Source of the DNA: an uncultured Gemmatimonadales bacterium
GTDB taxonomy: Bacteria > Gemmatimonadota > Gemmatimonadetes > Gemmatimonadales > GWC2-71-9
NCBI GenBank assembly: GCA_963716055.1
Contig: CAVQSR010000001.1
Coordinates: 1,350,791-1,414,790 of the forward strand
DNA: 64,000 bases
Direction of reading: 5' to 3'
This document shows positions 1-12,462 of this stretch, in pieces; the first letter of the stretch is position 1, and the number at the start of each line of letters is the position of its first letter. The position numbers and the translations under genes were made by a program. The notes below the pieces were generated by a model. It made no database searches and was not told the origin of the DNA. It was given only the letters and a program-made list of their open reading frames with translations.

Positions 1-3000
1 CCGATTCACTCCCGCTCCACGACATACTGCGGCCAAACGCCGCCTGCGCGATATCTGTTCCAGAGTATCCCACGTCGACAGCTGCTTCAGCTTTCACAGC
101 CCAGTCGGCCGGATTTGGGTAACCAGCCAGCGGCGCGAGATGCAGCTCCTTCAAGGTGTCCATCTGGAGCAACTCTCTGAGGAGTGTCGCATCATTGCCT
201 ACCAAGTGTTGGACGATTTCTGAGGGAAATAGGTCCCCGGGCAGAGTCGCCATGAGTCGCCGCCGATCATCGACGCTCAACCGCTCTAGCGCCGCACTAA
301 TCGTTTCCTCACAGCGCCAGAGCTCGGAATTCTGATGTAACCGCTCGGCCAGCCACTCCATCGCTAGCGATGGGTCTGCCTGGAGAATCTCACGGAGAGA
401 CCACTCGTCACATGGAACGCGCAGGACTGCCCGGTGCCACACCTCGCGCAGAGACTCTCGTACGGTGCCTTTGGGATCAGCAGTCCATTCACCAATCGCC
501 GCTGCCGAAGCGATGAACGGGTCCCGGTGGGATAGGAGCCGCCGGACGACTGCTTCGGGAAGCTCCAAGCGTAGACAGAGACTCTCGATCCACTGCGCGC
601 CGCCATCCAGGCGCTCCAGTGCAAGGTCGATCAGCTCTTCTGGCGTTGCCTCCTCCTGTAGCACCGTGATCGCCGCCATAAGACGCTGTCGACCATCATC
701 AAGGCAGAGTAGGGCAAGCTGGTGACTCGTCGAAGCCTTATCTCGAAGTAATCGCCGTAGAAAGGGCTGCAGGAGGTCGGACGATGCGTTTCCCGCAAGG
801 AACGCCTCAAGCCAGGGTGCGCAGTCGTCCGTTTGATCCGCAATCACCTGGCACACATGCGGGGTCCACCGCGGCCACGGGTTGCTAATGAGGCGACCTT
901 CTTCCTCATGGCGAAGCATCTCGGGAACTGAGAGACCGGGGCCGGCCTGTGCCCATCGTGTCGCCAGTGCTGTCGCTCGCTCTCGCTGTTCCTCTTCCTC
1001 GGCTCGCCAGTCCCCCCGCTCCCGGTGAGGGAAGAGCGTCTCGAAGTCAGCGTCGACCGAGGCGGACAAGTCGACGCCGAATCGATCCGCGACTGAGGCT
1101 ACCCAGTGAAGAAACCCTGAGTGACCTTTGCCTGCATCCGCAAGATCGCGCAACATCTCGCCGGCAAAGGAGGCGGCTTCAGCGGCAAGGGGCTCCGGTA
1201 GCGGTCGAGACGGACGCGGATGATAGGCCCACGCAGACACAACGTCTTGCACGGGTTTCCAGTGCTGTACCGGCTCGTTGGCAAGTCGCCCGCGAACTGC
1301 TGGCCACATTGCACGAATCGCTCGCGCCTCCTCAAGAGACACGAACCCGAATGAGAGCGTGAGATTTCGGCCACTGCCCGGTTCCGGCTCGGTGCGCTCG
1401 AATTCCGGGGACAGTGCCAATACGAGCGCATGCAGCCCGACTGCCGGGTTCCGACCTTCGTCCAACCAGTGCTGCGCAGTCTTCAGCAGCTGGGTTCGCC
1501 GTTCGAGCACGGACGGCGTGCCGGGCACTGCCGCATGGATCCAGTCGGCAACCTGTCGCAGCGCATGATCAGGATGCGAATGCAGCGCGCGGTTGTCTCC
1601 AATGGCACCGCCCAGCAGTATCGGGAGCGCGACCTCAGGCGCCGTCTCCAGCATGGTCCGACCGATTCGTCCGACCCATTCCGGATGCTCCGTCGCAATC
1701 CAAGTCGTCTCACGTCGGCCGAGTCGGGAATACAAAGCCCACAGGTCATGGGAGCCGCAACGCTCAATAAGGCTCCGCACCAAGTCCTCTGAAACCCGGG
1801 CGCCTCGATGTTGAGCCCGGACAACCGTAAGTGTCAGTTCCTCCACGTTCGGTGCGACCGAAAGCAGGGGTTCGATCGGCAGGGACGTAGGACCAGCGAA
1901 GAACACGTCCCGCACCAGTACATCGCGCAATGCTGGCGGTCGCACAGTGAGTCGTTCTCGATCGACCTCAACCAATACGCCGCCGGCCGCAAGGTGCGAG
2001 ACCCGTTCGCGAAGTCTGGAGGCAGGCTCCTCCAAGTAATCCGCCACGGCCTGCATGGCCATCCCTGCATCGCCGCCCGCTGCAAACACGGCGAGCAACG
2101 TCTTCGTGTCACCGCCAATAAGTCGGTTGAACACAAAGGCGATCTCTTGCGCCAGAGCATCGCCTTGTGCTACAGCCCTCACGTCTCCTCGCAAGCACAG
2201 ATTGGAAAGTGTGACGGCTAGGCCCGGCTTCCCTTCAGCCTGATTCACAATCTCTTGGATCAGTCCGCGCGGGCCGCCGATGCCCGCGCCTCTCACAACT
2301 GCCGCAATCTCATCCTGAGACAATAGGTCCAACCCACGCACTGATGCGGATGGTACATCCAAAGCTCGCGCGACGTCATCGCGGCTCCCGGGCCACGAGT
2401 CGGCGATGATACGGAACTCACCCCCCATCTCGGATCGCAGGCGACGCAGCTGCGGCAGGCGGTCGAGTTGTAGATGCGCGTTCTCGACAACGAGTGCAGA
2501 AGGATTCTCGCGACGAATACCCGCGGCTATCTCACCCAAGTCGGGCGTATGAGCAAAGAGGCCTCCCTGCTCCTTGGCGAAGTGGTAAAGCAGGAATGTC
2601 TTCCCCACGCCCGGTTGTCCAACGACCAGGAGATCGCCCGGAGTGTGCACCAGCCATAGCATGTCCTGCGAGCGCCCAACCAACACATCACCGATCACGG
2701 ACCGCCCGGGCTGCGGCATCACAGACAGTGGCGGAGGCCCCCCGACGATCCCGAGCAACTCTTGGCACCACTCGGGACGGCGATACAGAAGGTCTGTGAA
2801 CGCAGGGCGATCGTGAATCTGTGTTAGTGTGAAGCCTAGATCGCGCGCCACCTTCTCGAGGGCACTACGCCGCCGGGCAGAAACCGATTGTGAGGTAGCG
2901 AATACGACTGCTCTACGTGTTCCACCACGGGCTAGGTACGACTGGAGATTCCGACGCAGATTGCGACCGAGATCGGCGCCGATCGTCGTGACCAGCGGAA

Positions 3001-3181
3001 ACGGAAGTCCTGCGCCATCGGCAATGGCGCCGTCCATACCCGCGTCGTCGCCACCGCGGATCGGCACGAGGGTGGGGTGTACAGCACCGAGGAGGTCGGC
3101 TGCACAGCGTTCGAACAGCTCGGGGTCGAGCTTGCCGCCTAGTCCTGCTTCGATGTCACGATAAAACGAGTCGCGTATCAT
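1..3181 (-). CDS. Large P-loop NTPase (AAA/STAND-like) with Mrr-like N-terminal domain and long alpha-helical C-terminal region; 3' end runs off the window (>=1060 aa seen)
   Basis: Absent from the ORF track because it has no in-window stop. My translation of the minus strand from ATG 3181..3179 stays open to position 2. All listed minus ORFs in 1-3180 have starts congruent to 0 mod 3; this frame is 1 mod 3. Begins MIRDSFYRDIEAGLGG. Walker A VVGQPGVGKTFLL (Lys codon 2602..2600). Walker-B-like ALVVENAH about 40 aa later. N-term LFERCAADLLG..IRGGDDAGMDG resembles the start of Mrr_cat. Confidence 0.75.
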   Translation of the reverse strand, partial: MIRDSFYRDIEAGLGGKLDPELFERCAADLLGAVHPTLVPIRGGDDAGMDGAIADGAGLPFPLVTTIGADLGRNLRRNLQSYLARGGTRRAVVFATSQSVSARRRSALEKVARDLGFTLTQIHDRPAFTDLLYRRPEWCQELLGIVGGPPPLSVMPQPGRSVIGDVLVGRSQDMLWLVHTPGDLLVVGQPGVGKTFLLYHFAKEQGGLFAHTPDLGEIAAGIRRENPSALVVENAHLQLDRLPQLRRLRSEMGGEFRIIADSWPGSRDDVARALDVPSASVRGLDLLSQDEIAAVVRGAGIGGPRGLIQEIVNQAEGKPGLAVTLSNLCLRGDVRAVAQGDALAQEIAFVFNRLIGGDTKTLLAVFAAGGDAGMAMQAVADYLEEPASRLRERVSHLAAGGVLVEVDRERLTVRPPALRDVLVRDVFFAGPTSLPIEPLLSVAPNVEELTLTVVRAQHRGARVSEDLVRSLIERCGSHDLWALYSRLGRRETTWIATEHPEWVGRIGRTMLETAPEVALPILLGGAIGDNRALHSHPDHALRQVADWIHAAVPGTPSVLERRTQLLKTAQHWLDEGRNPAVGLHALVLALSPEFERTEPEPGSGRNLTLSFGFVSLEEARAIRAMWPAVRGRLANEPVQHWKPVQDVVSAWAYHPRPSRPLPEPLAAEAASFAGEMLRDLADAGKGHSGFLHWVASVADRFGVDLSASVDADFETLFPHRERGDWRAEEEEQRERATALATRWAQAGPGLSVPEMLRHEEEGRLISNPWPRWTPHVCQVIADQTDDCAPWLEAFLAGNASSDLLQPFLRRLLRDKASTSHQLALLCLDDGRQRLMAAITVLQEEATPEELIDLALERLDGGAQWIESLCLRLELPEAVVRRLLSHRDPFIASAAAIGEWTADPKGTVRESLREVWHRAVLRVPCDEWSLREILQADPSLAMEWLAERLHQNSELWRCEETISAALERLSVDDRRRLMATLPGDLFPSEIVQHLVGNDATLLRELLQMDTLKELHLAPLAGYPNPADWAVKAEAAVDVGYSGTDIAQAAFGRSMSWSGSES

Positions 3182-3407
3182 TCTTCAGAGCCTACCACCA
3201 ATGTCGGCCGCTTGGAAACAGCACCGCGACGACGCTAGTAACACTAGCAGAGCCGCACCCTTAGTCTGCGAGGTACTGGATTACGACGGCTCCGTCACCA
3301 GATCCACGATCATTTTGACCCGGGATTCGATCTCCTGGCGAGTAGGCTTCACCGTCTGAAAAACGAAGTTGATCGTCTTGGCCTCGCTGCTCCCTCACGC
3401 GGTCGCG

Positions 3408-3572
3408 CTAATGCGTATTGAAGTCGTTGTATGGTGCCTTGAGCGCTAACGCGACGTAGATCTCGAGAAGGGCTTGCCGGCATGGATCCGGCTCTTCTAC
3501 AAAACGGATCTTCATCTTTCGGATGCGCTTCCTAGCGAGGCGGAACGCAGTGACGAAGCCGTCATCCGTCAT
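3408..3572 (-). CDS. Small hypothetical ORF (54 aa), start overlaps the stop of the upstream hydrolase gene
   Basis: Below the ORF-track size cutoff. ATG 3572..3570 lies in GATGACGGATGA and overlaps the hydrolase stop (3564..3562). Reads MTDDGFVTAFRLARKRIRKMKIRFVEEPDPCRQALLEIYVALALKAPYNDFNTH*. No recognisable domain. Confidence 0.2.
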   Translation of the reverse strand: MTDDGFVTAFRLARKRIRKMKIRFVEEPDPCRQALLEIYVALALKAPYNDFNTH

Positions 3573-5691
3573 CAAGTGGGCGCGTGAACCGTCCGCTCTG
3601 TAGCTCGCTCACAACAGTCGAGATCCCAGCTAGCATAAGAATTATTGTGAACACAAGTAGTAGGTAGTTGAAGAGCCAGTCGGACGGCAGCCCTTCAAGG
3701 AGCAGCCACGAAAGACCGAAGACCATCCACACAATCATCGCCATGAAAAAGAGAGTGACTCGCATCCTACCGCGCGGAAGAACCCCGTTGCCTCCAGGCC
3801 ACTGGTTGGCCAGGACCCGATCCTGCTCCGCGCGGACCCAGAATCGCCATAAGCTGCGCAGGAGGCCGCAACTGGCCACGTGGATGAGGGCGATCCCCCC
3901 CAGAAGTACCGCGACCCGGGTAGCCTTTGACGCGACAGCGGGTAGCCAGGCTGGCAGTTTGAGTGGTTGCGGCACCAATTCTGAATATTTGAACCATACA
4001 GAGGCGCCCACAGTTAGCCAGGCAATCCCGACAGCGCGGCGCGCCAGCCGCAGCCAACCGACCCGCCAGGCCGCGCGCGCATCCACAGCAGGCGGGACCG
4101 GTGAAAGCTCGTCCCTCCAGGGGCTCATCGCTGTCTCCGCGCACTCCCTTAGGACGCGCAGAACGAAGCCATCGAGATTGTCCCAATAGGCAGAGTGGTC
4201 GGCAAGCCGCGAGCCAAGGTTCCAGATCCGGACCGATTCCGGTACGCCTGGTTCGGTGGTTCTCATGGGACCGTTCGGCACGGGGTCATGCGACGCGTAG
4301 AGGTCGATCCACCGATGCAAGCCCAGGGGTCTTCGTACTTGCTCGACGAGGCTCTTCATGCGCTGAGAGAGGATCCGGTATGAGAATATCCCTAGCACTA
4401 CGAATGCTGCGGCGAGGAATGTTACGCGATTTAAAGGCGCGTGCTTGAAGGGCACCGAACGGCTAAGGGATCCCCATGCGACGAGTGTTCCGAGAAGGAA
4501 CCCCGAGAGTAGCAAGAAGGATAGCAATGCGCTCAGGCGTTGCAACCACGGCTTCGAGACCAGCAAGGCAGCCGACCGTGTCCCCAGGTTGGGCCACAGC
4601 TTCAAAGCTAGGTAGATAATCAATCCAACGAATACTGCGACAGCCGAAGGAGCAAGCGCGACTCCGACGGCCTTCAGAATGTCCAGGAAGGTGATCCTTT
4701 GAGCTATGACATCTACAAACAGCCAGAGAGACAATCCGATGGCGATGACGATGGCTATGGTAGCAAGCAATGTGGGGTTCTTCTCTACCTTGGCAAATCT
4801 GGCTGACAAAACTTTCAGACTGACGAGCAGCGCCGTGCCAGCGCCGAATGTCACTAGGCTGTCTGGAACGACACGTGGCCCCAGGGGATCTTGGCGTGTC
4901 GCCTCACTAGTTTCTGCCGCTGTCCCGAGGATCCCACCCAGCGCGTCCATCGCGACGGCCGCGCCTTGCGAATGGGCGACGACGACCGTGGTCTCGCAGC
5001 ACTGCTTCAGTCGTGCGAGTCCCCCAAGGACCCGCGTGCGAATCAGCGCGGCCCGGATCGGACTCTTGACGAATGCGAGGCTATCGCCGACGATCGCCGC
5101 GAACCCTCCCCTCGCAGCGAGGATCCGGGTCCGCAGTTGCGGGATAGGGAGCAGTCCAGCGACTAGTCCGATTGCCAAAATGGCGATGTACAAGGGCGCG
5201 AACAGCAGAGCTATGGGGAGCCAGGCGTAGGTTTTGACTACCGAGACGATTTTATTGCTGACCTTGCCTGACTCGGCTGCGGTCCAGTACCTCTGCGCAA
5301 TGCGGAGGGCGATGGACCATGGCAGCGCCGTCACGCTCCAGGAAACAAGCTCTCGGTAGCTCGGAGCCAGGAAGGCGTCCGCCCACCACCCCTCGCAAAG
5401 CAGCCAACTCTCCTGACTTTCGCCCGCTCGTAGCCGAACAACCGCTTCCGCGCGACCCTCGTCATCTGGACCAGCCTGCAACGCGGTCGCGCTAACCCTG
5501 TAGTTCGTCGCTCGGCCGATTGTCTGCAATAGTACGTCGCCCCACCGAACGAGGGTTTCCCCGGACCGCTGTGAACCGATCCCATGTACGAGGAGCACAC
5601 CGAGCTGGTATTCCTTCGGCGCTTGGAGGGAAACACCAGAGAGGTCGTGGCCCCCCTCACTGTGATCGAGCCGACGGGTTGGTGTCATCAC
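3562..5691 (-). CDS. Membrane-embedded alpha/beta-hydrolase (lipase/esterase-like serine hydrolase), 709 aa
   Basis: ORF-track protein. Oxyanion-type LLVHGIGS (res 33-40), nucleophile elbow VVVAHSQGA (Ser241), then DLYASHDPV (Asp469) and LADHSAYW (His499). Hydrophobic helices at about 155-182, 307-441 (four) and 550-697 (about four). GGGAGA lies 5 nt upstream of the ATG. Confidence 0.75.
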   Translation of the reverse strand: MMTPTRRLDHSEGGHDLSGVSLQAPKEYQLGVLLVHGIGSQRSGETLVRWGDVLLQTIGRATNYRVSATALQAGPDDEGRAEAVVRLRAGESQESWLLCEGWWADAFLAPSYRELVSWSVTALPWSIALRIAQRYWTAAESGKVSNKIVSVVKTYAWLPIALLFAPLYIAILAIGLVAGLLPIPQLRTRILAARGGFAAIVGDSLAFVKSPIRAALIRTRVLGGLARLKQCCETTVVVAHSQGAAVAMDALGGILGTAAETSEATRQDPLGPRVVPDSLVTFGAGTALLVSLKVLSARFAKVEKNPTLLATIAIVIAIGLSLWLFVDVIAQRITFLDILKAVGVALAPSAVAVFVGLIIYLALKLWPNLGTRSAALLVSKPWLQRLSALLSFLLLSGFLLGTLVAWGSLSRSVPFKHAPLNRVTFLAAAFVVLGIFSYRILSQRMKSLVEQVRRPLGLHRWIDLYASHDPVPNGPMRTTEPGVPESVRIWNLGSRLADHSAYWDNLDGFVLRVLRECAETAMSPWRDELSPVPPAVDARAAWRVGWLRLARRAVGIAWLTVGASVWFKYSELVPQPLKLPAWLPAVASKATRVAVLLGGIALIHVASCGLLRSLWRFWVRAEQDRVLANQWPGGNGVLPRGRMRVTLFFMAMIVWMVFGLSWLLLEGLPSDWLFNYLLLVFTIILMLAGISTVVSELQSGRFTRPLDDG

Positions 5692-5807
5692 AGTCTCCCA
5701 GTGAACCGTTTCAGGTGGTGTGACTCATTCAACTAGTTATTTGACGTCCGAATGACTGCGCCGAGCGCATCAGCATCTGCGTGCCATGGACCGCCGGTAT
5801 GGCCCGT

Positions 5808-6068
5808 TTACTCTGGTCGTTCGTCTGGTGCTTCTGTAGCCTCGGCGGACAGGTCCTCGCGGAGGAGTCTGATGATCCCGGGGACGTGCCGGCGAGCTGG
5901 CGCTGTCCGATTTCTCTCCCAGTTGTAGACCGTTGTCTTGTCCACGGCAAGTCGCTCGGCCACCTCGCGCTGCAGTAACCCCAATTCGAGCCGCCGCCAG
6001 TGGAGCCGGTCCCCAAGGGTCTTGATCTCCTTCGGATAGCCTACCGGCAGCGGCTTCCGTCCCTTCAA
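5808..6068 (-). CDS. XRE-family helix-turn-helix transcriptional regulator (about 86 aa from TTG start)
   Basis: The C-terminal 86 aa of ORF 5808..6188 read KEIKTLGDRLHWRRLELGLLQREVAERLAVDKTTVYNWERNRTAP, a classic HTH_3/XRE pattern. The track's N-terminal extension is R/G-rich and overlaps the comM fragment. In-frame TTG at 6068..6066 chosen as start (uncertain). Confidence 0.6.
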   Translation of the reverse strand: MKGRKPLPVGYPKEIKTLGDRLHWRRLELGLLQREVAERLAVDKTTVYNWERNRTAPARRHVPGIIRLLREDLSAEATEAPDERPE

Positions 6069-6097
6069 AGTGGCATGGCAAAAAGGCAACGCAGGAA

Positions 6098-6619
6098 TGT
6101 CCCTACGGCTACGCGGGCGACCCCCACCACGACTGCACCTGCGGCCCCCCGGACGTGCAGCGTTACCTCGCGCGCGTCTCGGGGCCATTGCTCGACCGCA
6201 TCGACATCCACCTGGAGGTGCCGGCTGTGAAGTACCGCGAGCTGTCCGAGCGCGCGGCCGGGGAGCCGAGTGCCGCGATCCGCGCGCGGGTGGACCGGGC
6301 GCGGACCACGCAGCGCGCGCGGTTCGCCGGGCGGCCCGGCGTGTTCGCCAACGCGCACATGGGGCCGCGCGACATCCGGGCCCACTGCCGCGTGAGCGAC
6401 GGCGCGGAGGCGTTGCTGCGGACGGCGATCACCCGGCTTGGCCTTTCAGCGCGAGCGTATCACCGCATTCTCAAGATCGCCCGCACGATCGCGGATCTGG
6501 ACGGCGCCGCGGGCCTGGAGCCGAAGCATGTGAGCGAGGCGATTCAATACCGCAGTCTGGACCGGCGGGGCGGAATGACACCGGGTCCCGTCGTTCCCAT
6601 TTCGACACACGGGCGGTAA
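6098..6619 (+). pseudogene. comM: 3' fragment (C-terminal about 173 aa) of comM/yifB Mg-chelatase-like ATPase, 5'-truncated
   Basis: In-frame reading from 6098 gives CPYGYAGDPHHDCTCGPPDVQRYLARVSGPLLDRIDIHLEVP...SARAYHRILKIARTIADLDG...HVSEAIQYRSLDR. This is the conserved Cys cluster and C-terminal domain of the ComM/YifB family. The approximately 330 N-terminal residues (Lon-like and AAA+ parts) are missing, and upstream sequence in that frame (WHGKKATQE) is unrelated. Confidence 0.8.
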
Positions 6620-6829: not shown

Positions 6830-7186
6830 ATGAACAGCTTCGATTCAGGGCCCGCGGCCGTACGATCGGCCGCCCGCCAATCCCAGCAGCTGGTGACCTA
6901 CCTCCTCAACGGACCGGATGACCCCGCGGCGTGGGCCGAGCTCGCGCGCCTCGCGGACGGCATCCGGGCCGAAGCCGCCGCGCAGTCGCTCAGTGAGCTG
7001 GAGGGGGTCGCCGCGAGCATCGCGGCCATGGCGGACGTCGCCGTGCTCGACGCGCACACCACGATGGAGCTCGACGCCGCGGCGGACCGACTCCTCGTCC
7101 TCACGGACCGGGCCTCGCAGTCCCTGGAGGCGCTGACGCTGCCGGAGGAAGACGCTGTCGCGGGGCCCTACTCGGATGCCGGGTAG
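6830..7186 (+). CDS. Hypothetical protein (118 aa), Ala/Leu-rich helical
   Basis: ORF-track ORF in an otherwise empty interval. No recognisable motif, and coding status not verified. Confidence 0.35.
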   Translation: MNSFDSGPAAVRSAARQSQQLVTYLLNGPDDPAAWAELARLADGIRAEAAAQSLSELEGVAASIAAMADVAVLDAHTTMELDAAADRLLVLTDRASQSLEALTLPEEDAVAGPYSDAG

Positions 7187-7214
7187 CGCCGCGGCCCCGC
7201 CCGGTCGGAAAGTC

Positions 7215-8270
7215 TCAGGCGCGGCCGACCTCGGGCCTACCGCTCAGGTCGGGATGGTGATCTCGCAGCCACGCGACCGAGTCCGATAGCGTCACGCGGC
7301 CGTCGCGGCTGCGATAGTCGAGCTCCGCCGCGGCGTAGCGCGACGTCACGGCCCAGTGGTGCCGCGCCATCTCGATCACGACCGGGTCGGGCAGAGCGGA
7401 CGTCGGTCGCCCGACGAGCCGGCTGAGCCGGTCCGCCAGCGCCGCGAGCGCCCACGCGAGGTGGTAGGGCAGCACGCGCCGCGGCGCCGGCAGGCCCGCT
7501 ACGTCTCCCGCCAGGGCGAAGAACTCCTCCACGCCGCACACCGTGCCCGGCAGGTGGTACACCGGCCGGGCCGCGGGCCGCTCCATGATGCGCACGAGCG
7601 CCGCGGCCACGTCGCGCACGTCGGCGAAGTGCATCCCGCCGCGAATCACGAACGGGAGCCGGCCCCGCAGGTAGCGCACCAGGTGTCCCGTGGAGCGGAA
7701 GCGGTGGTCACCCGGTCCGAGCAGCATCGGTGGGCGCACGATCACGAGGTCCACGCCCAGCTCCTCCGCCAACGCCCGCGCCCCGCGCTCCGCCAGGATC
7801 TTCGAGTGGTAATAGGGCCAGCGGGCGACGCGCTCCTCGCAATAGGGCGCGTCCTCGTCCGCCCACTCGGCGGCGCCGCGAAAGCAGCCGACGGTCCCGG
7901 TGCTCGACACGACCACCAGCCGGCAGCGATGGACCGCGGCGAGGCGCACCGCCGCGCGCGTGCCCGCGACGTTGGTGTGGTACATGTCGCCCGGCTCGCG
8001 CCGGCTGTGGCGGACGACGGCCGCCAGGTGGAAGATGCCGCCGAGGCCGTGCACGCCGGCGTCCGCCGACCACGCCTCGGGTTCCGTGACGGATCCCGCG
8101 AGCACCGTGACCGCGGCGAGTGGTCGCGTCCACTCCATCCGGTGCCAGGCGTCGGGGGAGCGCGCGAGCGCGATCACGCGACGCTGAGGGTCGCCGCGCC
8201 GGAGGGTGAGCAGCAGGTGGCGTCCGAGGAAGCCACCGGCGCCGGTGACGAGATACGGACCGTCGGTCAG
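7215..8270 (-). CDS. NAD-dependent epimerase/dehydratase-family SDR (candidate acyl/alkyl-DHAP reductase)
   Basis: C-terminal 351 aa of ORF 7215..9689: YLVTGAGGFLGRHL (Rossmann GxxGxxG), YYHSKILAE (YxxxK). The upstream part of that ORF is R/P/A junk antisense-overlapping the next gene. Start is uncertain: only CTG 8270 sits next to the upstream stop, with no ATG/GTG/TTG nearby. Confidence 0.75.
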   Translation of the reverse strand: MTDGPYLVTGAGGFLGRHLLLTLRRGDPQRRVIALARSPDAWHRMEWTRPLAAVTVLAGSVTEPEAWSADAGVHGLGGIFHLAAVVRHSRREPGDMYHTNVAGTRAAVRLAAVHRCRLVVVSSTGTVGCFRGAAEWADEDAPYCEERVARWPYYHSKILAERGARALAEELGVDLVIVRPPMLLGPGDHRFRSTGHLVRYLRGRLPFVIRGGMHFADVRDVAAALVRIMERPAARPVYHLPGTVCGVEEFFALAGDVAGLPAPRRVLPYHLAWALAALADRLSRLVGRPTSALPDPVVIEMARHHWAVTSRYAAAELDYRSRDGRVTLSDSVAWLRDHHPDLSGRPEVGRA

Positions 8271-10630
8271 GCCACGGGCTCCGGGGCGCGCCCGGGATCG
8301 CCCACGGCATGGCCGGGCGCGGCGCGCAGCGCCCCGAGCCGCTGCTCGAGCGGCTCGTCCCCCGCACCCGTCTCGAACAGGTGGGCGAACTGGTTCCCGA
8401 GCGAGCGCGCGATCTCCGGATCGAGGTCGGGGGGCAGACTCAACGCGCTTTCGAGCACCCGCCCGCCGCGCTGCTCGATCGCGCGGCGGAGCCATGCCGC
8501 ATCGACGCCGGGGACCGGATGCCGGTCGAGGAAGCCTCGCAGGTGGTACGTCGTCGTGACGGTGGCGCGCGCCAGGCGCGCGAGCACCTCCTGGCTCGCG
8601 GCGTAGACGTCGTCCGCTGGGTCGAGCGGAATCGGAGCGCCGCAGGCGATGTGGATCCGTCCCAGATCGATCCGGCCGAGGAACACGCGCACCGTCCAGG
8701 CGAGCAGCGCGCCGAGGCGCATCTTCGGCTTCGGCGCCCCGGCCAGCTCGCGGGCGAAGCTCGCTTCTTCGGGCACGCGCTCGTAGGACAGCGCCACCGG
8801 GAGCAGCGCGCAGGGCTCGCCCGTGGCTTGCACCGAGCGCAGCAGGCCGCGCTTGGGCGGCAGGAACCGGCGCGAGCGGCTCCGCTGTCCCTCGATGAAC
8901 ACCTCGAGCGCCCGGCGCTCGCGCACGAGCGCGCGCACCCGGGCCGTCACGGCCGGGTCCTCGCGCCCCTCCCCCCGGGTCACGTAGAACGCCTGCAGGC
9001 GGGTGGCGAGCCACCCCACGACGGGAATACGCGCGAAGTCGACGGCCGCGGCCACGTAGGGAATGGGGACGCCGAGGTCGCGCCGCGCGAAGAAGAGATA
9101 GGAGCACAGGATGAAATCGAGATAGCTGCGGTGCGACGGCACGATCACGAGCGGGCAGTCCGGGGGCACGGCCCGGCGGGCTGCTTCGAACGACGGCAGG
9201 TCCACCGTGATTCGCTCGCAGCAGCGGCGCAGCACCTTCGTCACGAGCCAGGCCGCGGCGCGGAGCAGGCCGGTCCCGTCGGGTTGCCGTCGGGCCCAGC
9301 GCAGGTCGCCGCCGTGGCCCGGATGGCGCCGGCCGGCGAGGCACCACTGCGTGTCGTCGCGCCGCAGAAGGTACCGATACACCCCGCGGCTCACCGTGGC
9401 GACGTACCCCCCGGGATCGAACCCCGCGTCGAGCGGTGCCGCCGAGCGGAAGTCGAAGGTATGCCGGGTGAAGTAGCGAAACACGCGGTTGGCGTGGGTG
9501 AGGCGCGCCCGCAGCTGGGCGGCCGCGCGGCGCGCGCGCGGCGTGCGCATCCCGGCCGCCGCGATGGGCAGCCGGTGGTGCATCGCGTCCGCGACGCCGA
9601 AGGCCAATCCCGGCGGCCCGAGGTAGCGCATGGCGGGCGGCCGCTCGACGGGATGCACGGCGAAGAAATCCTGGATGCGCGTCCAGCATTCCCGCACGGT
9701 GGCGCTGCGCGCGACGCCCGCCACCGCGTGCTGAATCAACGGCTCGCTCCCGGCGGGAGGCGCTCCGTTACAGGCGAGCAGGATGCGGGTGGCCACTTCG
9801 TCCACCGGGATCAGGTCGAGGCGCGCGTCGGGGTCGCCCACCACGGCGCGCAGGTGCCCCGATCCCAGCAGCATCACGAAGGTGGCGAACCCGGCCGCGC
9901 TGTCGATCCACCCGGGAAAGGGATAGCGCCAGCTCGCCGAAATGATGCTGGGGCGCACGATCGCGAGCGGCACCCCGCCGCTCCGCGCCACCAGCAGATG
10001 CTCGGCCAGGGACTTGGTGAACGTGTAGGTGTTCGGGTGACCGGAGCGCCGGAACAGCTCGGCGGCGCGGGCGCCGCCGTTCAGGATGTCCCCGTAGAGC
10101 TCCTCGGCGGGCGCCGGGAGCGGCGCGAGCGTTTCGCCGGCGGACGTGTGCGCCCCGGCGGCGGGCGTCACGTACGCGGTCGACACGTACACGAGCCGCT
10201 CGAGTCCGGCGCACGCCCGCGCCAACTCGAGCAGGTTGAGGCTCGCGGCCACGTTCCACCGCGCGGCGTCGGCCAGCGGATGATCGAACTCCACCGAGGC
10301 AGCGGCGTGGAGCGCGTGGGTGGTCGTGCCCGTGATCGCGTCCCGCGCCGCGGGGTCGAGAGCGAGACCCGGGTGCTCGAGGGTGCCCTCGACCACCCGA
10401 ACCAACCGGGTCCAGTCCCGCGGCAGCCCGACGAAGCACGCCGAGGGGGCCACCTCGCGGCGGAACCGCTCGTCGGCGCCGCGCGCACCCTTGCGGCGGA
10501 TCACCACGGTCACCTGGGTGGTCTCGAGCTCGTCGCGCCGGCGCAGTAGCTCCTCGAGCAGCACCTTTCCCAGGAAGCCCGTGACGCCCGTCAGCAGATA
10601 GGCCCGCCCCGCGCCTCCCCCCTCCCGCAT
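8267..10630 (-). CDS. Fusion protein: fatty acyl-CoA reductase (FAR) domain + PlsB/GNPAT-type acyltransferase (DHAPAT-like) domain, 787 aa
   Basis: From internal ATG 10630 (MREGGGAGRAYLLTGVTGFLGKVLLEELL). FAR motifs TGxTGFLGK and NTYTFTKSLAE. C-terminal half has acyltransferase blocks VPSHRSYLDFIL (HxxxxD) and FIEGQRSRSRRFLPPKRG. Confidence 0.85.
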   Translation of the reverse strand: MREGGGAGRAYLLTGVTGFLGKVLLEELLRRRDELETTQVTVVIRRKGARGADERFRREVAPSACFVGLPRDWTRLVRVVEGTLEHPGLALDPAARDAITGTTTHALHAAASVEFDHPLADAARWNVAASLNLLELARACAGLERLVYVSTAYVTPAAGAHTSAGETLAPLPAPAEELYGDILNGGARAAELFRRSGHPNTYTFTKSLAEHLLVARSGGVPLAIVRPSIISASWRYPFPGWIDSAAGFATFVMLLGSGHLRAVVGDPDARLDLIPVDEVATRILLACNGAPPAGSEPLIQHAVAGVARSATVRECWTRIQDFFAVHPVERPPAMRYLGPPGLAFGVADAMHHRLPIAAAGMRTPRARRAAAQLRARLTHANRVFRYFTRHTFDFRSAAPLDAGFDPGGYVATVSRGVYRYLLRRDDTQWCLAGRRHPGHGGDLRWARRQPDGTGLLRAAAWLVTKVLRRCCERITVDLPSFEAARRAVPPDCPLVIVPSHRSYLDFILCSYLFFARRDLGVPIPYVAAAVDFARIPVVGWLATRLQAFYVTRGEGREDPAVTARVRALVRERRALEVFIEGQRSRSRRFLPPKRGLLRSVQATGEPCALLPVALSYERVPEEASFARELAGAPKPKMRLGALLAWTVRVFLGRIDLGRIHIACGAPIPLDPADDVYAASQEVLARLARATVTTTYHLRGFLDRHPVPGVDAAWLRRAIEQRGGRVLESALSLPPDLDPEIARSLGNQFAHLFETGAGDEPLEQRLGALRAAPGHAVGDPGRAPEPVA

Positions 10631-10646
10631 GCGATTCACGGCGCTC

Positions 10647-12462
10647 TCAGGACCGGAGCCGCGCGGCCGGCGGTCCGGCCACCAGCTGATTGCCGGCTCC
10701 GAAGACGTTGGCCGGATCGATCGCCCGCTTGACCTCCGCGGCCCACTCGAGGGCGGCGGGCGACATGATGCGGGGCAGGAACGCACGCCGCAGCTTGCCG
10801 ACGCCGTGGTGGTGCGAGAGCGATCCGCCGGAGTGCAGAATCTCGTCGCGAGCCGACCGCTCGAGTTCGGCGAAGACCGCGCTCGGCTGCTCCACTCCCT
10901 TGTGGTAGAACGCCAGGTAGAAATAGACGCACACGCCCGTCTGGTAGACCTGCGTCACCCGGCAGCTGATGAAAGGTGTACCGGGCAGGCCGCGCGCCGC
11001 GTGCTCGGCGGCGATCCGCCGCTTCACGTTGTCGCACAACGACAATGCCTGGCTCCACGGCACCGACGTCTCGAACGACTCGCCCAGGATGTAATGCCGC
11101 ATGACGAAGTCGCGGATGTAGGCGATGCCGAAGGTCAGCTGGTACCCGCGGCGCCCGTTCTCCGCGCCCGCGCCCATGCCGCCGTGGCGCCGCGCGAGGC
11201 GGCTCACGGCGCGCCGCTCGGTCCGGACCTCGTCGGCGGCCGCCTTCGAAGACCAGCGTGCAGGCGACCATGCGGTCCGGATCGAAGCCGCGCAGCCGCG
11301 TGACGAAGAACTTCTCGGCCTGCCGCTTGAGCGCCGCCAGGCCCTCGGCCGGGCTTGAGCGTCATGCTCAGCTGGAACTGGAGGTTGTCCACCAGCCGCA
11401 CGCTGGCGGGCGGCGTCGCCTCCCGCGTGAGATCGTACAGAAAGCCGACGCCCGCCTCGAAGGACGGGAAGATGAGCGAGTCGTAGCGCGTGACCTCGGG
11501 CAGCGGGAAGATCTTCACCACCGCCCGGGTGATGATGCCGAGGGTGCCCTCGGAGCCGAAGATCCAGCGCCGCGCGTCGACGCCGACCGACTCGCGCGGC
11601 GCGACCGCGGGTCGCGACACCGGGCCGCGCGCCGTGACCACGTCGACGTCCAGCACCAGGTCCTCGATGTTGCCGTAGCGGTTCTTCTTCATGCCGCTGC
11701 AGTGGGTCGCGATCCAGCCGCCCAGCGTCGAGAACTCGACGCTGTCGGGCTCGTGGCCCAGGGTGAAGCCGTGGGCCCCGAGCTGCTCCTCGATGTGGCG
11801 CCCCACGGCGCCCGCCTCGATGCAGGCCATGAGGTTCGTCGGGTCGATCCACAGGATCCGGTTCAGCCGTTCGCATGTCCACCGACACGATCGTCCGCTC
11901 CTCGTCGCTCGGGCAGCGGAGCGCGTCGGTGACGTTCGTGCCGCCGCCGTAGGGCACGAGGCAGACGTCGTGGCGCGCCGCCGCCTCCACCAGCGCGACG
12001 ACGTCGTCCTCGGTGCGGGGGTACACCACGAGATCGGGCAGCCGTTCGAGGCGCCCGTACTTGATGAGCGTACATCTCCTCCAGCGTGTGGCCGTGGCCG
12101 TGGCGCAGGCGGATCGCGGCGTCGGTGGTGACGGCGTCCGCGGTCAGGAAGGTCCGCAGCTCCGCCACGAACAGCGGGTGCGCGCGCGGCGCGGGCACGT
12201 CCGGGGGATACGCGGAGTCGTGCGTGTCGCGGGGATCGAGCGCGACCCCGAGGACGCGGCTGGTCCACGGGAGCAGATCGGGCAATTCGGCGCCGCTCAA
12301 GGGGTAGCGGGAGCCCGTCAGCGTGACGTGCCCGTTGGGCAGCACCGTGAATGCCGAGTCGCGAAAGCCCCACACGTCGAGGCTTTCCTCGTCGCCGGCG
12401 TGGTGGGGCGGATCGCCCGGCACGATGCGGTCATCGGCGTCGAGCGCGAAGCGGGGGGCCAT
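10647..12462 (-). pseudogene. Alkyldihydroxyacetonephosphate synthase (AGPS, FAD-linked oxidase) interrupted by four frameshifts
   Basis: Homology runs through four track ORFs in three frames. 12462->~12066: WGFRDSAF..GHTLEEMY. ~12066->~11872: IKYGRLERLPDLVVYPRTEDDVV..PYGGGTNV. ~11870->~11350: LNRILWIDPTNLMACIEAG..GWIATHCSGMKKNRYGNIEDL. ~11350->~11240: EGLAALKRQAEKFFVTRLRGFDPDRMVACTLVFEG. ~11240->10647: AADEVR..GYQLTFGIAYIRDF..HHHGVGK. Length is 1816 nt, not a multiple of 3. Confidence 0.8.

What the first reader, a model, noticed from the sequence alone, without database searches (positions are those of the whole stretch)
3562..5691. Alpha/beta-hydrolase whose catalytic triad is split by transmembrane insertions
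The hydrolase elements are spread over 500 residues: HG oxyanion motif at 36-37 (LLVHGIGS), nucleophile elbow AHSQG (Ser241), DLYASHDPV (Asp469) and LADHSAYW (His499). A ~28-residue hydrophobic hairpin-length segment (155-182) sits between HG and Ser. Four helices (about 307-441) sit between Ser and Asp. About four more follow His. The even helix count between Ser and Asp/His would keep the triad on one side of the membrane, so the fold could be intact but embedded in the bilayer. That fits a lipid-directed or membrane-disrupting effector rather than a soluble esterase. I do not recognise a characterised family with this layout.
Basis: partly seen in the sequence, partly recalled or inferred. 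Interest (0 to 1): 0.7.

Follow-up and report, generated by a model that had tools for sequence, protein, structure and literature searches.

The report
Membrane-embedded lipase-like hydrolase, split by helices
This gene encodes a real but unstudied type of lipase-like enzyme whose catalytic domain is interrupted by membrane-spanning helices, so its active site probably sits against the inner face of the cell membrane; it belongs to a large, unnamed bacterial family whose biological role is unknown.

Summary
The ORF lies on the minus strand (window 5691..3562, 709 codons; likely ATG start at 5688). It carries HG36-37, AHSQG (Ser241), Asp469 and His499 exactly as stated, separated by strongly hydrophobic helices.

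These residues are invariant or nearly so in 84 homologues down to about 26-30% identity. With the membrane inserts spliced out, an AlphaFold model (pLDDT 84) matches only alpha/beta-hydrolases in the PDB. A profile alignment to Bacillus LipA pairs Ser241 with Ser77 and Asp469 with Asp133.

The insert between Ser and Asp holds 4, 2 or 0 helices in 218 of 240 relatives. Charge distribution puts all three soluble pieces in the cytoplasm. The fold is therefore intact, with about 10 helices (2+4+4) taking the usual lid positions.

No Pfam, NCBIfam, PADLOC, PHROGs or PDB sequence match exists. The family has at least 2,250 clusters at 50% identity, spread patchily over many phyla.

The gene is solitary, with no conserved neighbour. 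In this window it lies on a GC-poor island inserted in comM, beside a nuclease-ATPase gene and a Shedu gene. One homologue is an opposite-strand cargo gene in a phage contig.

The most likely mechanism is lateral hydrolysis of a membrane lipid ester. A defence or "effector" role is possible but unproven.

The parts
3562..5691 (-). CDS of the membrane-embedded alpha/beta-hydrolase (709 codons from GTG 5691; likely start ATG 5688; stop 3564..3562)
   Evidence: identical database protein P0001 and more than 300 full-length homologues
5359..5610 (-). Core piece 1 (res 28-111): strand with the HG oxyanion motif, helix A, three-strand meander; ends in the conserved EGWWA
   Evidence: strands 28-35, 66-75, 81-89, 92-100 and helix 45-61; W96 and W103 invariant
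5572..5595 (-). LLVHGIGS (res 33-40), oxyanion-hole HG motif
   Evidence: H36 and G37 in 82 of 84 sequences, the other two gapped; G39 in 83 of 84, the other gapped
5065..5358 (-). Insert 1 (res 112-209): conserved interfacial helix 112-140 plus a hydrophobic helical hairpin (148-179, turn LLPIPQL, 187-209 with invariant G202-D203)
   Evidence: present in all relatives, including the Streptomyces-type variant
4792..5064 (-). Core piece 2 (res 210-300): helix B, strand 5, nucleophile elbow, helix C, strand 6 (TFGAG), helix D
4963..4977 (-). AHSQG nucleophile elbow (res 239-243; Ser241)
   Evidence: A, H, Q and G invariant and Ser in 83 of 84; aligns with LipA Ser77
4345..4791 (-). Insert 2 (res 301-449): four transmembrane helices in the canonical lid position between strand 6/helix D and strand 7
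   Evidence: helices 306-329, 335-368, 381-409, 420-440; hydropathy; 4, 2 or 0 helices across the family
4108..4344 (-). Core piece 3 (res 450-528): strand 7, Asp loop, strand 8, His loop, helix F
4285..4287 (-). Asp469 codon (catalytic acid)
   Evidence: invariant; aligns with LipA Asp133
4195..4197 (-). His499 codon (catalytic base)
   Evidence: D498-H499 invariant; lies in the loop after strand 485-489
3565..4107 (-). C-terminal membrane bundle (res 529-709): helices 534-572, 585-627, 637-666, 670-702, with invariant R543 and W615
5808..6068 (-). Context only: XRE-type HTH gene (86 aa) about 117 nt upstream; not conserved next to homologues
1..3181 (-). Context only: 1111-aa neighbour (5' 1060 codons in the window), nuclease-like N-terminus + P-loop NTPase + helical repeats; not conserved next to homologues
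6095..6619 (+). Context only: 3' fragment of comM/yifB (Mg-chelatase-like); marks the right-hand junction of the GC-poor island

Best explanation
The gene encodes a polytopic inner-membrane serine hydrolase of the alpha/beta-hydrolase fold, of the lipase/esterase type. The roughly 260-residue catalytic core is made of three cytoplasmic pieces (res 28-111, 210-300, 450-528) that reassemble into one sheet. A conserved helical hairpin follows strand 4. A variable bundle of 4 (elsewhere 2 or 0) transmembrane helices sits in the classical lid position between strand 6 and strand 7. Four further helices follow the core. Because lid inserts and catalytic loops all leave the same edge of the sheet, the active-site face must be pressed against the cytoplasmic surface of the membrane, with the helices acting as a membrane-embedded lid or substrate tunnel. 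The inferred chemistry is as follows. A membrane-embedded ester, most simply an acyl ester of an inner-leaflet phospholipid, enters laterally. It is attacked by Ser241, activated by His499-Asp469, with the oxyanion held by the backbone NH groups of Ile38 and Gln242. Shown here: the motifs, their conservation, the fold of the model, the even helix numbers and the charge bias. Inferred: the orientation of the active site, the lipid substrate and the hydrolysis itself. The gene works alone (no conserved partner) and is an accessory, horizontally moved gene. Its cellular role is unresolved between lipid turnover or repair and a conflict or defence function.
For: Motifs at the stated positions. HG, AHSQG (Ser in 83 of 84), D469 and DH498-499 are conserved in 84 homologues spanning two clades. 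The full-length model has pLDDT 86.3 and pTM 0.85, with 8 strands and canonical placement of HG, Ser, Asp and His. The spliced-core model has pLDDT 83.8 and pTM 0.86. Apart from a few lower-ranked unrelated folds, its Foldseek PDB hits are alpha/beta-hydrolases: brefeldin A esterase 3.9e-5, monoacylglycerol lipase 2.9e-4, Est2, LipS; probability about 1.0, TM 0.37-0.51. hhalign of the core profile to B. subtilis LipA gives E 1.8e-4 and pairs Ser241/Ser77, TFGAG/TLGGAN and Asp469/Asp133 (LipA sequence verified against 1I6W). Spliced cores give sub-threshold Abhydrolase_6 hits in 15 of 19 members. Helix count between Ser and Asp: 4 in 175, 2 in 38, 0 in 5 of 240 relatives, with trimodal insert lengths. 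K/R-rich flanks lie on the side of the soluble pieces (3.0-3.2 per flank, 1.6 before the first lid helix), against 0.1-0.8 in the short opposite loops, and there is no signal peptide, so the core is cytoplasmic. Invariant Trp residues (96, 103, 118, 461, 615; 503 nearly so) and invariant polar residues in the inserts (D203, R543) show the membrane parts are functional, not mere anchors. The gene is solitary: no neighbour cluster beyond 9 of 80 loci, and no Pfam family in more than 3 of 138 nearest neighbours.
Confidence: 0.6

Rival explanations
1. Same enzyme, but its role is a regulated suicide, anti-phage or superinfection-exclusion effector. It would be held inactive in the membrane and, on infection, degrade the cell's own inner-leaflet lipids (single-gene abortive infection). 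Long relatives would use a cytoplasmic TPR domain as the sensor.
For: In this window the gene lies on a GC 0.61 island (host 0.725) inserted in comM. It sits beside a nuclease-like/P-loop/repeat protein and, just outside the window, an SduA_C (Shedu) gene. One homologue (41% identity) is an opposite-strand cargo gene between the terminase/portal and primase/helicase modules of a viral contig. Other contexts hold IS66, DUF3987 or a terminase nearby. The phyletic spread is patchy. A clade carries C-terminal TPR repeats after 4 helices, hence cytoplasmic.
Against: No PADLOC or PHROGs match. Only 1 hit in 2.9 million viral contigs and none in 50,697 phage or 72,556 plasmid records. Nearest neighbours in 138 cases show only a handful of generic ATPase-type PADLOC hits. 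Several contexts look chromosomal and housekeeping-like, for example AhpC-DinB-hydrolase conserved on 16 contigs. The 709-aa form has no evident sensor domain.
Confidence: 0.2
2. The core acts as an acyltransferase, transacylase or thioesterase rather than a lipase. It would move an acyl group between a cytoplasmic donor (acyl-CoA or acyl-ACP) and a membrane acceptor held by the helices, or deacylate a lipidated protein.
For: Alpha/beta-hydrolases with the same triad include acyltransferases and thioesterases (established knowledge). Conserved polar residues inside the membrane inserts (D203, R543) could bind a specific head group. The core faces the cytoplasm, where acyl donors are found.
Against: The HGIG and A-H-S-x-G motifs and the best profile match are to true lipases (LipA). 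The best structural matches are esterases and monoacylglycerol lipases. No biosynthetic neighbour genes recur.
Confidence: 0.12
3. The hydrophobic segments are not membrane-spanning. They form a buried hydrophobic cap of a soluble or peripheral enzyme, or the protein is a catalytically dead scaffold.
For: Helix 545-566 and helix 187-209 are only moderately hydrophobic (KD 1.16 and 0.75). No dedicated topology predictor could be run.
Against: Eight segments of 19 or more residues reach KD 2.0-2.7. Charge bias follows the positive-inside rule at every loop. Insert size changes in steps of two helices. The triad and oxyanion motifs are essentially invariant, which argues against a pseudoenzyme.
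Confidence: 0.05

Closest known systems
Bacillus subtilis lipase A (LipA, PDB 1I6W; minimal lipases of family I.4, A-x-S-x-G type)
   Same: Shares HGIG just after the first core strand, an A-H-S-x-G nucleophile elbow, the T(F/L)G-G-(T/A)N strand-6 motif and a YxS(A/H)D acid loop. The profile alignment pairs Ser241/Ser77 and Asp469/Asp133.
   Different: LipA is a 181-residue secreted, lid-less soluble enzyme. This protein has 709 residues, no signal peptide, about 10 membrane helices inserted after strand 4, after strand 6/helix D and after helix F, and a three-strand meander after helix A. The similarity is sub-threshold (probability 48%), and Pfam Lipase_2 is not hit.
PGAP1/Bst1 GPI inositol deacylase (cryo-EM structures, PMC10761859)
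   Same: It works alike in principle. A lipase-type alpha/beta domain is docked on a 10-helix membrane domain, and domain and helices together form a lateral cavity that takes a membrane lipid to a Ser-Asp-His triad.
   Different: In PGAP1 the lipase domain is contiguous (S327, D407, H443), lies between TMH1 and a jelly-roll domain, and faces the ER lumen. Here the core is cut into three pieces by the helices and is predicted to be cytoplasmic. There is no sequence or Foldseek match.
PlaF of Pseudomonas aeruginosa (membrane-bound phospholipase A1, PMC9132575)
   Same: A bacterial inner-membrane alpha/beta-hydrolase that degrades the cell's own glycerophospholipids. Its active-site cleft is formed partly by a juxtamembrane helix.
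   Different: PlaF has one N-terminal helix, a soluble three-helix lid and a periplasmic catalytic domain. It did not appear among the sequence or structure matches.
Monoacylglycerol lipases and hormone-sensitive-lipase-type esterases (3RM3, 1JKM, 1EVQ, 4FBL)
   Same: These are the best structural matches of the spliced core (E 4e-5 to 1e-3, probability about 1.0). Their caps sit in the same lid position as the 4-helix insert.
   Different: They are soluble enzymes with soluble caps, 9-14% identity and TM-scores of only 0.37-0.51.

Membership tests
Alpha/beta-hydrolase fold superfamily | Central, mostly parallel sheet of about 8 strands flanked by helices | tested here: met
   8 strands in the full-length model. 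The spliced-core model's PDB matches are alpha/beta-hydrolases at probability about 1.0, apart from a few lower-ranked unrelated folds. This is model-level evidence only.
Alpha/beta-hydrolase fold superfamily | Nucleophile elbow (small-x-Ser-x-small) between strand 5 and helix C | tested here: met
   AHSQG directly after strand 232-240 and before helix 242-250; conserved in 84 homologues, with Ser in 83.
Alpha/beta-hydrolase fold superfamily | Order nucleophile-acid-His, with the acid after strand 7 and His after strand 8 | tested here: met
   D469 follows strand 460-466 and H499 follows strand 485-489. D469 aligns with LipA Asp133. Both are invariant.
Alpha/beta-hydrolase fold superfamily | Triad residues in hydrogen-bonding geometry | not testable with these tools
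Alpha/beta-hydrolase fold superfamily | Significant match to a curated sequence model of the clan | tested here: not met
   The full-length protein has no Pfam or NCBIfam hit at E<=10. Spliced cores give only sub-threshold hits (Abhydrolase_6 best E 0.0015, 15 of 19 members).
Lipase_2 / family I.4 minimal lipases (LipA-like) | A-x-S-x-G pentapeptide and an HG oxyanion motif near the N-terminus | tested here: met
   AHSQG and VHGIG; aligned to LipA.
Lipase_2 / family I.4 minimal lipases (LipA-like) | Small (about 180-aa) secreted, lid-less soluble enzyme, recognised by the family profile | tested here: not met
   709 aa, about 10 hydrophobic helices, no signal peptide. No Lipase_2 hit. hhalign probability is only 48%.
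PGAP1/Bst1 GPI inositol deacylase | Contiguous PGAP1 lipase domain facing the lumen or exterior, followed by jelly-roll and membrane domains | tested here: not met
   No PGAP1 Pfam hit. No PGAP1 chain among the Foldseek PDB matches of the full-length or core model. The core is split and predicted cytoplasmic. PGAP1 architecture taken from PMC10761859.
Known or candidate anti-phage defence proteins (PADLOC-DB 2.0) | Match to a defence-protein model | tested here: not met
   0 families at E<=1.
Known or candidate anti-phage defence proteins (PADLOC-DB 2.0) | Recurrent location in defence islands | tested here: inconclusive
   This holds for this window only. Among 138 nearest neighbours of homologues there are only a few generic ATPase-type hits, and no background control was run.
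T6SS Tle lipase effectors (Tle3) | Match to a Tle domain above threshold and linkage to T6SS or immunity genes | tested here: not met
   Tle3 scores 11.6 bits against a cut-off of 27, in 2 of 19 spliced cores. No recurrent T6SS neighbour exists; a single Hcp gene lies 4.4 kb away in L098. A 10-helix membrane protein is an unlikely secreted effector (inference).

The most novel reading that the evidence does not exclude
A self-contained, single-gene membrane 'fuse'. The enzyme is a lipase whose lid is a bundle of transmembrane helices, so the state of the bilayer itself (depolarisation, phage pore or holin insertion, lipid packing) opens the active site and triggers degradation of the inner leaflet. 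This would be a new type of abortive-infection or stress effector, with TPR-fused relatives sensing cytoplasmic proteins instead.
Probability: 0.12. Interest if true: 0.8.

Novelty: new variant of a known kind. Interest (0 to 1): 0.55.

Why it matters
Alpha/beta-hydrolases are among the best-studied enzyme folds, and their lids are normally soluble. In this case, membrane helices occupy the two classical lid-insertion sites and also follow the core. They are added or lost in pairs (0, 2 or 4), which is a natural experiment in how a soluble fold becomes an intramembrane-access enzyme.

The family is large (at least 2,250 clusters at 50% identity, 883 at E<=1e-30) and spans at least ten phyla. 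Yet it has no Pfam, NCBIfam, PDB or defence-database entry, so thousands of genes are currently annotated as 'hypothetical', or wrongly, for example as 'transposase' or 'fumarate reductase subunit D'.

Bacterial cytoplasm-facing phospholipases that act on the cell's own membrane are barely known. A characterised member would bear on lipid turnover, or on membrane-targeting immunity. The confident model makes S241A, D469N and H499A mutants and insert-deletion experiments easy to design.

Tried and rejected
Searches of the full-length protein found nothing:
- Pfam, NCBIfam (one spurious 6.9-bit hit), PADLOC, PHROGs and PDB by sequence, as single protein and as profile.
- Foldseek of the full-length model against PDB and BFVD (best E 0.024 and 0.25). 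The inserts swamp the core, which is why I built the spliced core.
A spliced first row aligned to full-length homologues was accepted.

Tests for a partner gene were also negative:
- A two-gene system with the 1111-aa nuclease/P-loop neighbour or the upstream HTH is rejected, because tblastn found neither in the 80 related genome loci then held.
- Clustering of all flanking ORFs, Pfam and PADLOC counts over 138 nearest neighbours and 12 annotated contexts found no conserved partner.
- Large SAM/cyclase/AAA_16 proteins occur near the gene in 9 of 80 loci. Such proteins are very common in these phyla, so I did not treat this as a link.

Other readings I rejected:
- Secreted lipase or T6SS Tle effector: there is no signal peptide, the protein is polytopic, and it has no T6SS context.
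- Plasmid or phage cargo in cultured collections: no tblastn match.

Dead ends:
- Promoter, terminator and repeat scans around the gene gave nothing beyond chance.
- Literature searches found no description of this architecture.
Full report
**1. Observation**

The ORF at 3562-5691 is real but lies on the minus strand.
- It has 709 codons from GTG. The next codon is ATG (5688), with GGGAGA 5 nt upstream, and the identical database protein P0001 has 708 residues.
- All four motifs sit where stated: LLVHGIGS 33-40, AHSQG 239-243, DLYASHDPV 463-471, LADHSAYW 496-503.
- Hydropathy confirms the segments. There is a 154-188 peak, four segments between Ser and Asp (304-334, 333-370, 385-410, 422-443), three strong segments after His (590-614, 642-670, 667-699) and one weaker one (545-566).

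**2. A conserved family without a name**

- The full-length protein has no hit in Pfam, NCBIfam, PADLOC, PHROGs or PDB sequences.
- It nevertheless has more than 300 full-length homologues at 37-51% identity.
- A profile search of 1.84 billion cluster representatives finds 2,252 clusters at E<=1e-3 and 883 at E<=1e-30.
- Species genomes with a member span Proteobacteria, Acidobacteriota, Verrucomicrobiota, Gemmatimonadota, Nitrospirota, Chloroflexota, Actinomycetota, Cyanobacteria and others. Only 107 of 185,579 species were recovered, although the search was limited by its patterns.
- In 29 close plus 55 distant members the following are invariant: A239, H240, Q242, G243, D463, D469, D498-H499 and Y502, together with W96, W103, W118, P124, P182, G202-D203, G283, W461, G474 and R543. 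S241 is Ser in 83 of 84 sequences, H36 and G37 are present in 82 and G39 and W615 in 83, the remaining sequences being gapped there.

**3. Fold**

- AlphaFold2 with 44 sequences gives pLDDT 86.3 and pTM 0.85.
- The model has eight strands. HG ends strand 28-35. Ser241 sits between strand 232-240 and helix 242-250. Asp469 follows strand 460-466, and His499 follows strand 485-489 and precedes helix 506-520. This is the canonical alpha/beta-hydrolase order.
- The full-length model finds nothing significant in the PDB, because long helices dominate it.
- I therefore spliced out the inserts (res 24-111 + 208-300 + 450-528).
  - The spliced sequences give sub-threshold but consistent alpha/beta-hydrolase Pfam hits: Abhydrolase_6 in 15 of 19, plus DUF900, Abhydrolase_2, Ser_hydrolase and Tle3.
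  - The spliced profile aligns to B. subtilis LipA (sequence checked against 1I6W) at E 1.8e-4 and probability 48%. It pairs Ser241/Ser77, TFGAG/TLGGAN and Asp469/Asp133, and the alignment stops one residue before LipA's His156, eight residues short of His499 in the query.
  - The spliced core, modelled with full-length homologues as its alignment, gives pLDDT 83.8 and pTM 0.86. Apart from a few lower-ranked unrelated folds, its PDB matches are alpha/beta-hydrolases: 1JKM 3.9e-5, 3RM3 2.9e-4, 5MII at TM 0.50, then Est2 and LipS.

**4. Membrane anatomy**

- Insert 1 (112-209) follows the strand-4 region. It is the best-conserved part outside the catalytic motifs and is present in every relative. 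It contains a conserved helix 112-140, then a hairpin 148-179 / LLPIPQL / 187-209 carrying the invariant G202-D203.
- Insert 2 (301-449) sits in the classical lid position. It is poorly conserved in sequence and varies in size.
  - In 240 relatives a simple hydropathy count gives 4 helices in 175, 2 in 38, 0 in 5, and odd numbers in 22.
  - Insert lengths cluster at 45-75, 108-133 and 180-240 residues.
  - The 0-helix (Streptomyces-type) variant instead has a soluble insert of about 130 residues between Asp and His.
  - Gain and loss in pairs is what a one-sided catalytic domain requires.
- Family-averaged K+R counts are high in every flank next to a soluble piece (3.0-3.2, or 1.6 before the first lid helix). 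They are near zero in the short opposite loops (0.1-0.8). With no signal peptide, this puts the core in the cytoplasm and gives 2+4+4 helices with the C-terminus inside.
- A distant clade (800-1167 aa) adds TPR repeats after the four C-terminal helices, so these too are cytoplasmic.

**5. Genomic context**

- Window 1-6090 has GC 0.61 against 0.725 for the rest, and the change is sharp at about 6100.
- At 6095-6619(+) lies only the 3' end of comM/yifB (Mg_chelatase profile positions 179-207 plus the C-terminal domain). The gene therefore sits on an island inserted in comM.
- Upstream is an XRE-type HTH gene (5808-6068).
- Downstream is a 1111-aa protein (window 3181..1 and beyond) with a nuclease-like N-terminus (weak PADLOC match to a nuclease (REase)-domain model), a Walker A motif, a weak AAA_16 match and helical repeats. 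Next, outside the window, comes an SduA_C (Shedu) gene.
- Neither neighbour recurs next to homologues.
- Across 80 genome loci and 12 annotated contexts, no partner is conserved.
- Contexts range widely. Some are ORFan-rich or linked to mobile elements: IS66 and DUF3987, or a terminase nearby. Others are plainly chromosomal: AhpC-DinB-hydrolase is identical on 16 contigs.
- One homologue is an opposite-strand cargo gene between the packaging and replication modules of a viral contig. That is the only hit in 2.9 million viral contigs. There is none in 50,697 phage or 72,556 plasmid records.

**6. Mechanism**

- Shown: an essentially invariant Ser-Asp-His/HG set on a confidently modelled alpha/beta core, even-numbered membrane inserts at lid positions, and a cytoplasmic charge bias.
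- Inferred from the established geometry of the fold: catalytic loops and lid inserts all leave the C-terminal edge of the sheet. The active-site face must therefore abut the inner leaflet, with the helices serving as lid and lateral substrate path. PGAP1 uses the same principle with a contiguous domain.
- The family occurs in both diderm and monoderm phyla. This argues for a generic membrane substrate such as phospholipid acyl esters, rather than LPS or mycolates (inference).
- I put 0.6 on 'integral-membrane lipid esterase/phospholipase acting from the cytoplasmic side'.
- The biological role is open. A defence or suicide-effector role gets about 0.2, resting on the island and phage-cargo contexts only. 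An acyltransferase or thioesterase variant gets about 0.12.

**7. Comparison and novelty**

- The protein belongs to the alpha/beta-hydrolase superfamily by fold and motifs, but to no curated family.
- Its closest sequence logic is LipA-type A-x-S-x-G lipases.
- Its closest working analogues are PGAP1 and PlaF. Both have contiguous, extracytoplasmic catalytic domains.
- Literature searches found no description of a core split by transmembrane lids.
- Verdict: a new variant of a known kind. It is real, widespread and unannotated, and its function is unknown.

Noticed in passing
window 1-6100: GC-poor island (0.61 against 0.725) whose right junction cuts comM/yifB. Only the last ~29 positions of the Mg_chelatase domain and the C-terminal domain remain, at 6095-6619(+). 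The left end, and any integrase, lie outside the window.
   Followed up: partly
window 1-3181 (-), continuing beyond the window start: 1111-aa protein with an Mrr/REase-like N-terminus (PADLOC Aga_REase model, E 0.0019), Walker A GQPGVGKT, a weak AAA_16 hit and long helical repeats. It looks like a STAND/Avs-like defence NTPase. The next gene, outside the window, carries SduA_C (Shedu).
   Followed up: partly
window 5808-6068 (-): 86-aa XRE-type HTH protein at the island edge, with weak PADLOC similarity to the defence-associated regulators mad1, CapH and RmrA. It is not conserved next to hydrolase homologues.
   Followed up: partly
L088 4786-7137 (+) (IMGVR_UViG_3300015371_003242): Full-length homologue (41% identity) sitting as an opposite-strand cargo gene. 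On one side are TerS/TerL/portal (259-4113, -). On the other are NusG-like, D5 primase-helicase and DnaG-type primase genes (7134-12103, -).
   Followed up: partly
P0215-P0230 (distant clade, 1071-1167 aa): Relatives carry C-terminal TPR repeats after the C-terminal membrane helices. This may be a cytoplasmic sensor or partner-binding module.
   Followed up: partly
L066 7914-10058 (+) (Streptomyces sp.); also L061, L065, L079: Actinomycete variant with no helices between Ser and Asp but a soluble insert of about 130 aa between Asp and His. L049 (Agromyces) has a 2-helix insert and many more C-terminal helices.
   Followed up: partly
L006, L007/L081, L018, L019, L021, L024, L045 and others: Large SAM/adenylate-guanylate cyclase/AAA_16 (STAND-type) proteins lie within about 0.6-3.3 kb of the hydrolase in 9 of 80 loci. 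This may be chance, given how common these proteins are in soil bacteria.
   Followed up: no
L093-L096 5863-8980: In a Solibacteraceae lineage the gene follows AhpC/Redoxin and DinB genes on the same strand, with a 33-nt gap, identically on 16 contigs. A peroxiredoxin gene also lies about 5 kb away in another context. This hints at oxidised-lipid repair but is untested.
   Followed up: no
P0048 (Bradyrhizobium jicamae WP_157088589.1), P0005, P0057, P0039, P0040: Public annotations of family members are wrong or misleading: 'transposase', 'fumarate reductase subunit D', 'HicB family nuclease', 'YidH'.
   Followed up: no
window 7215-9689 (-): 824-aa protein with a C-terminal NAD-dependent epimerase/NAD_binding_4 (terminal reductase-like) domain, in the high-GC host DNA just right of the island.
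   Followed up: no
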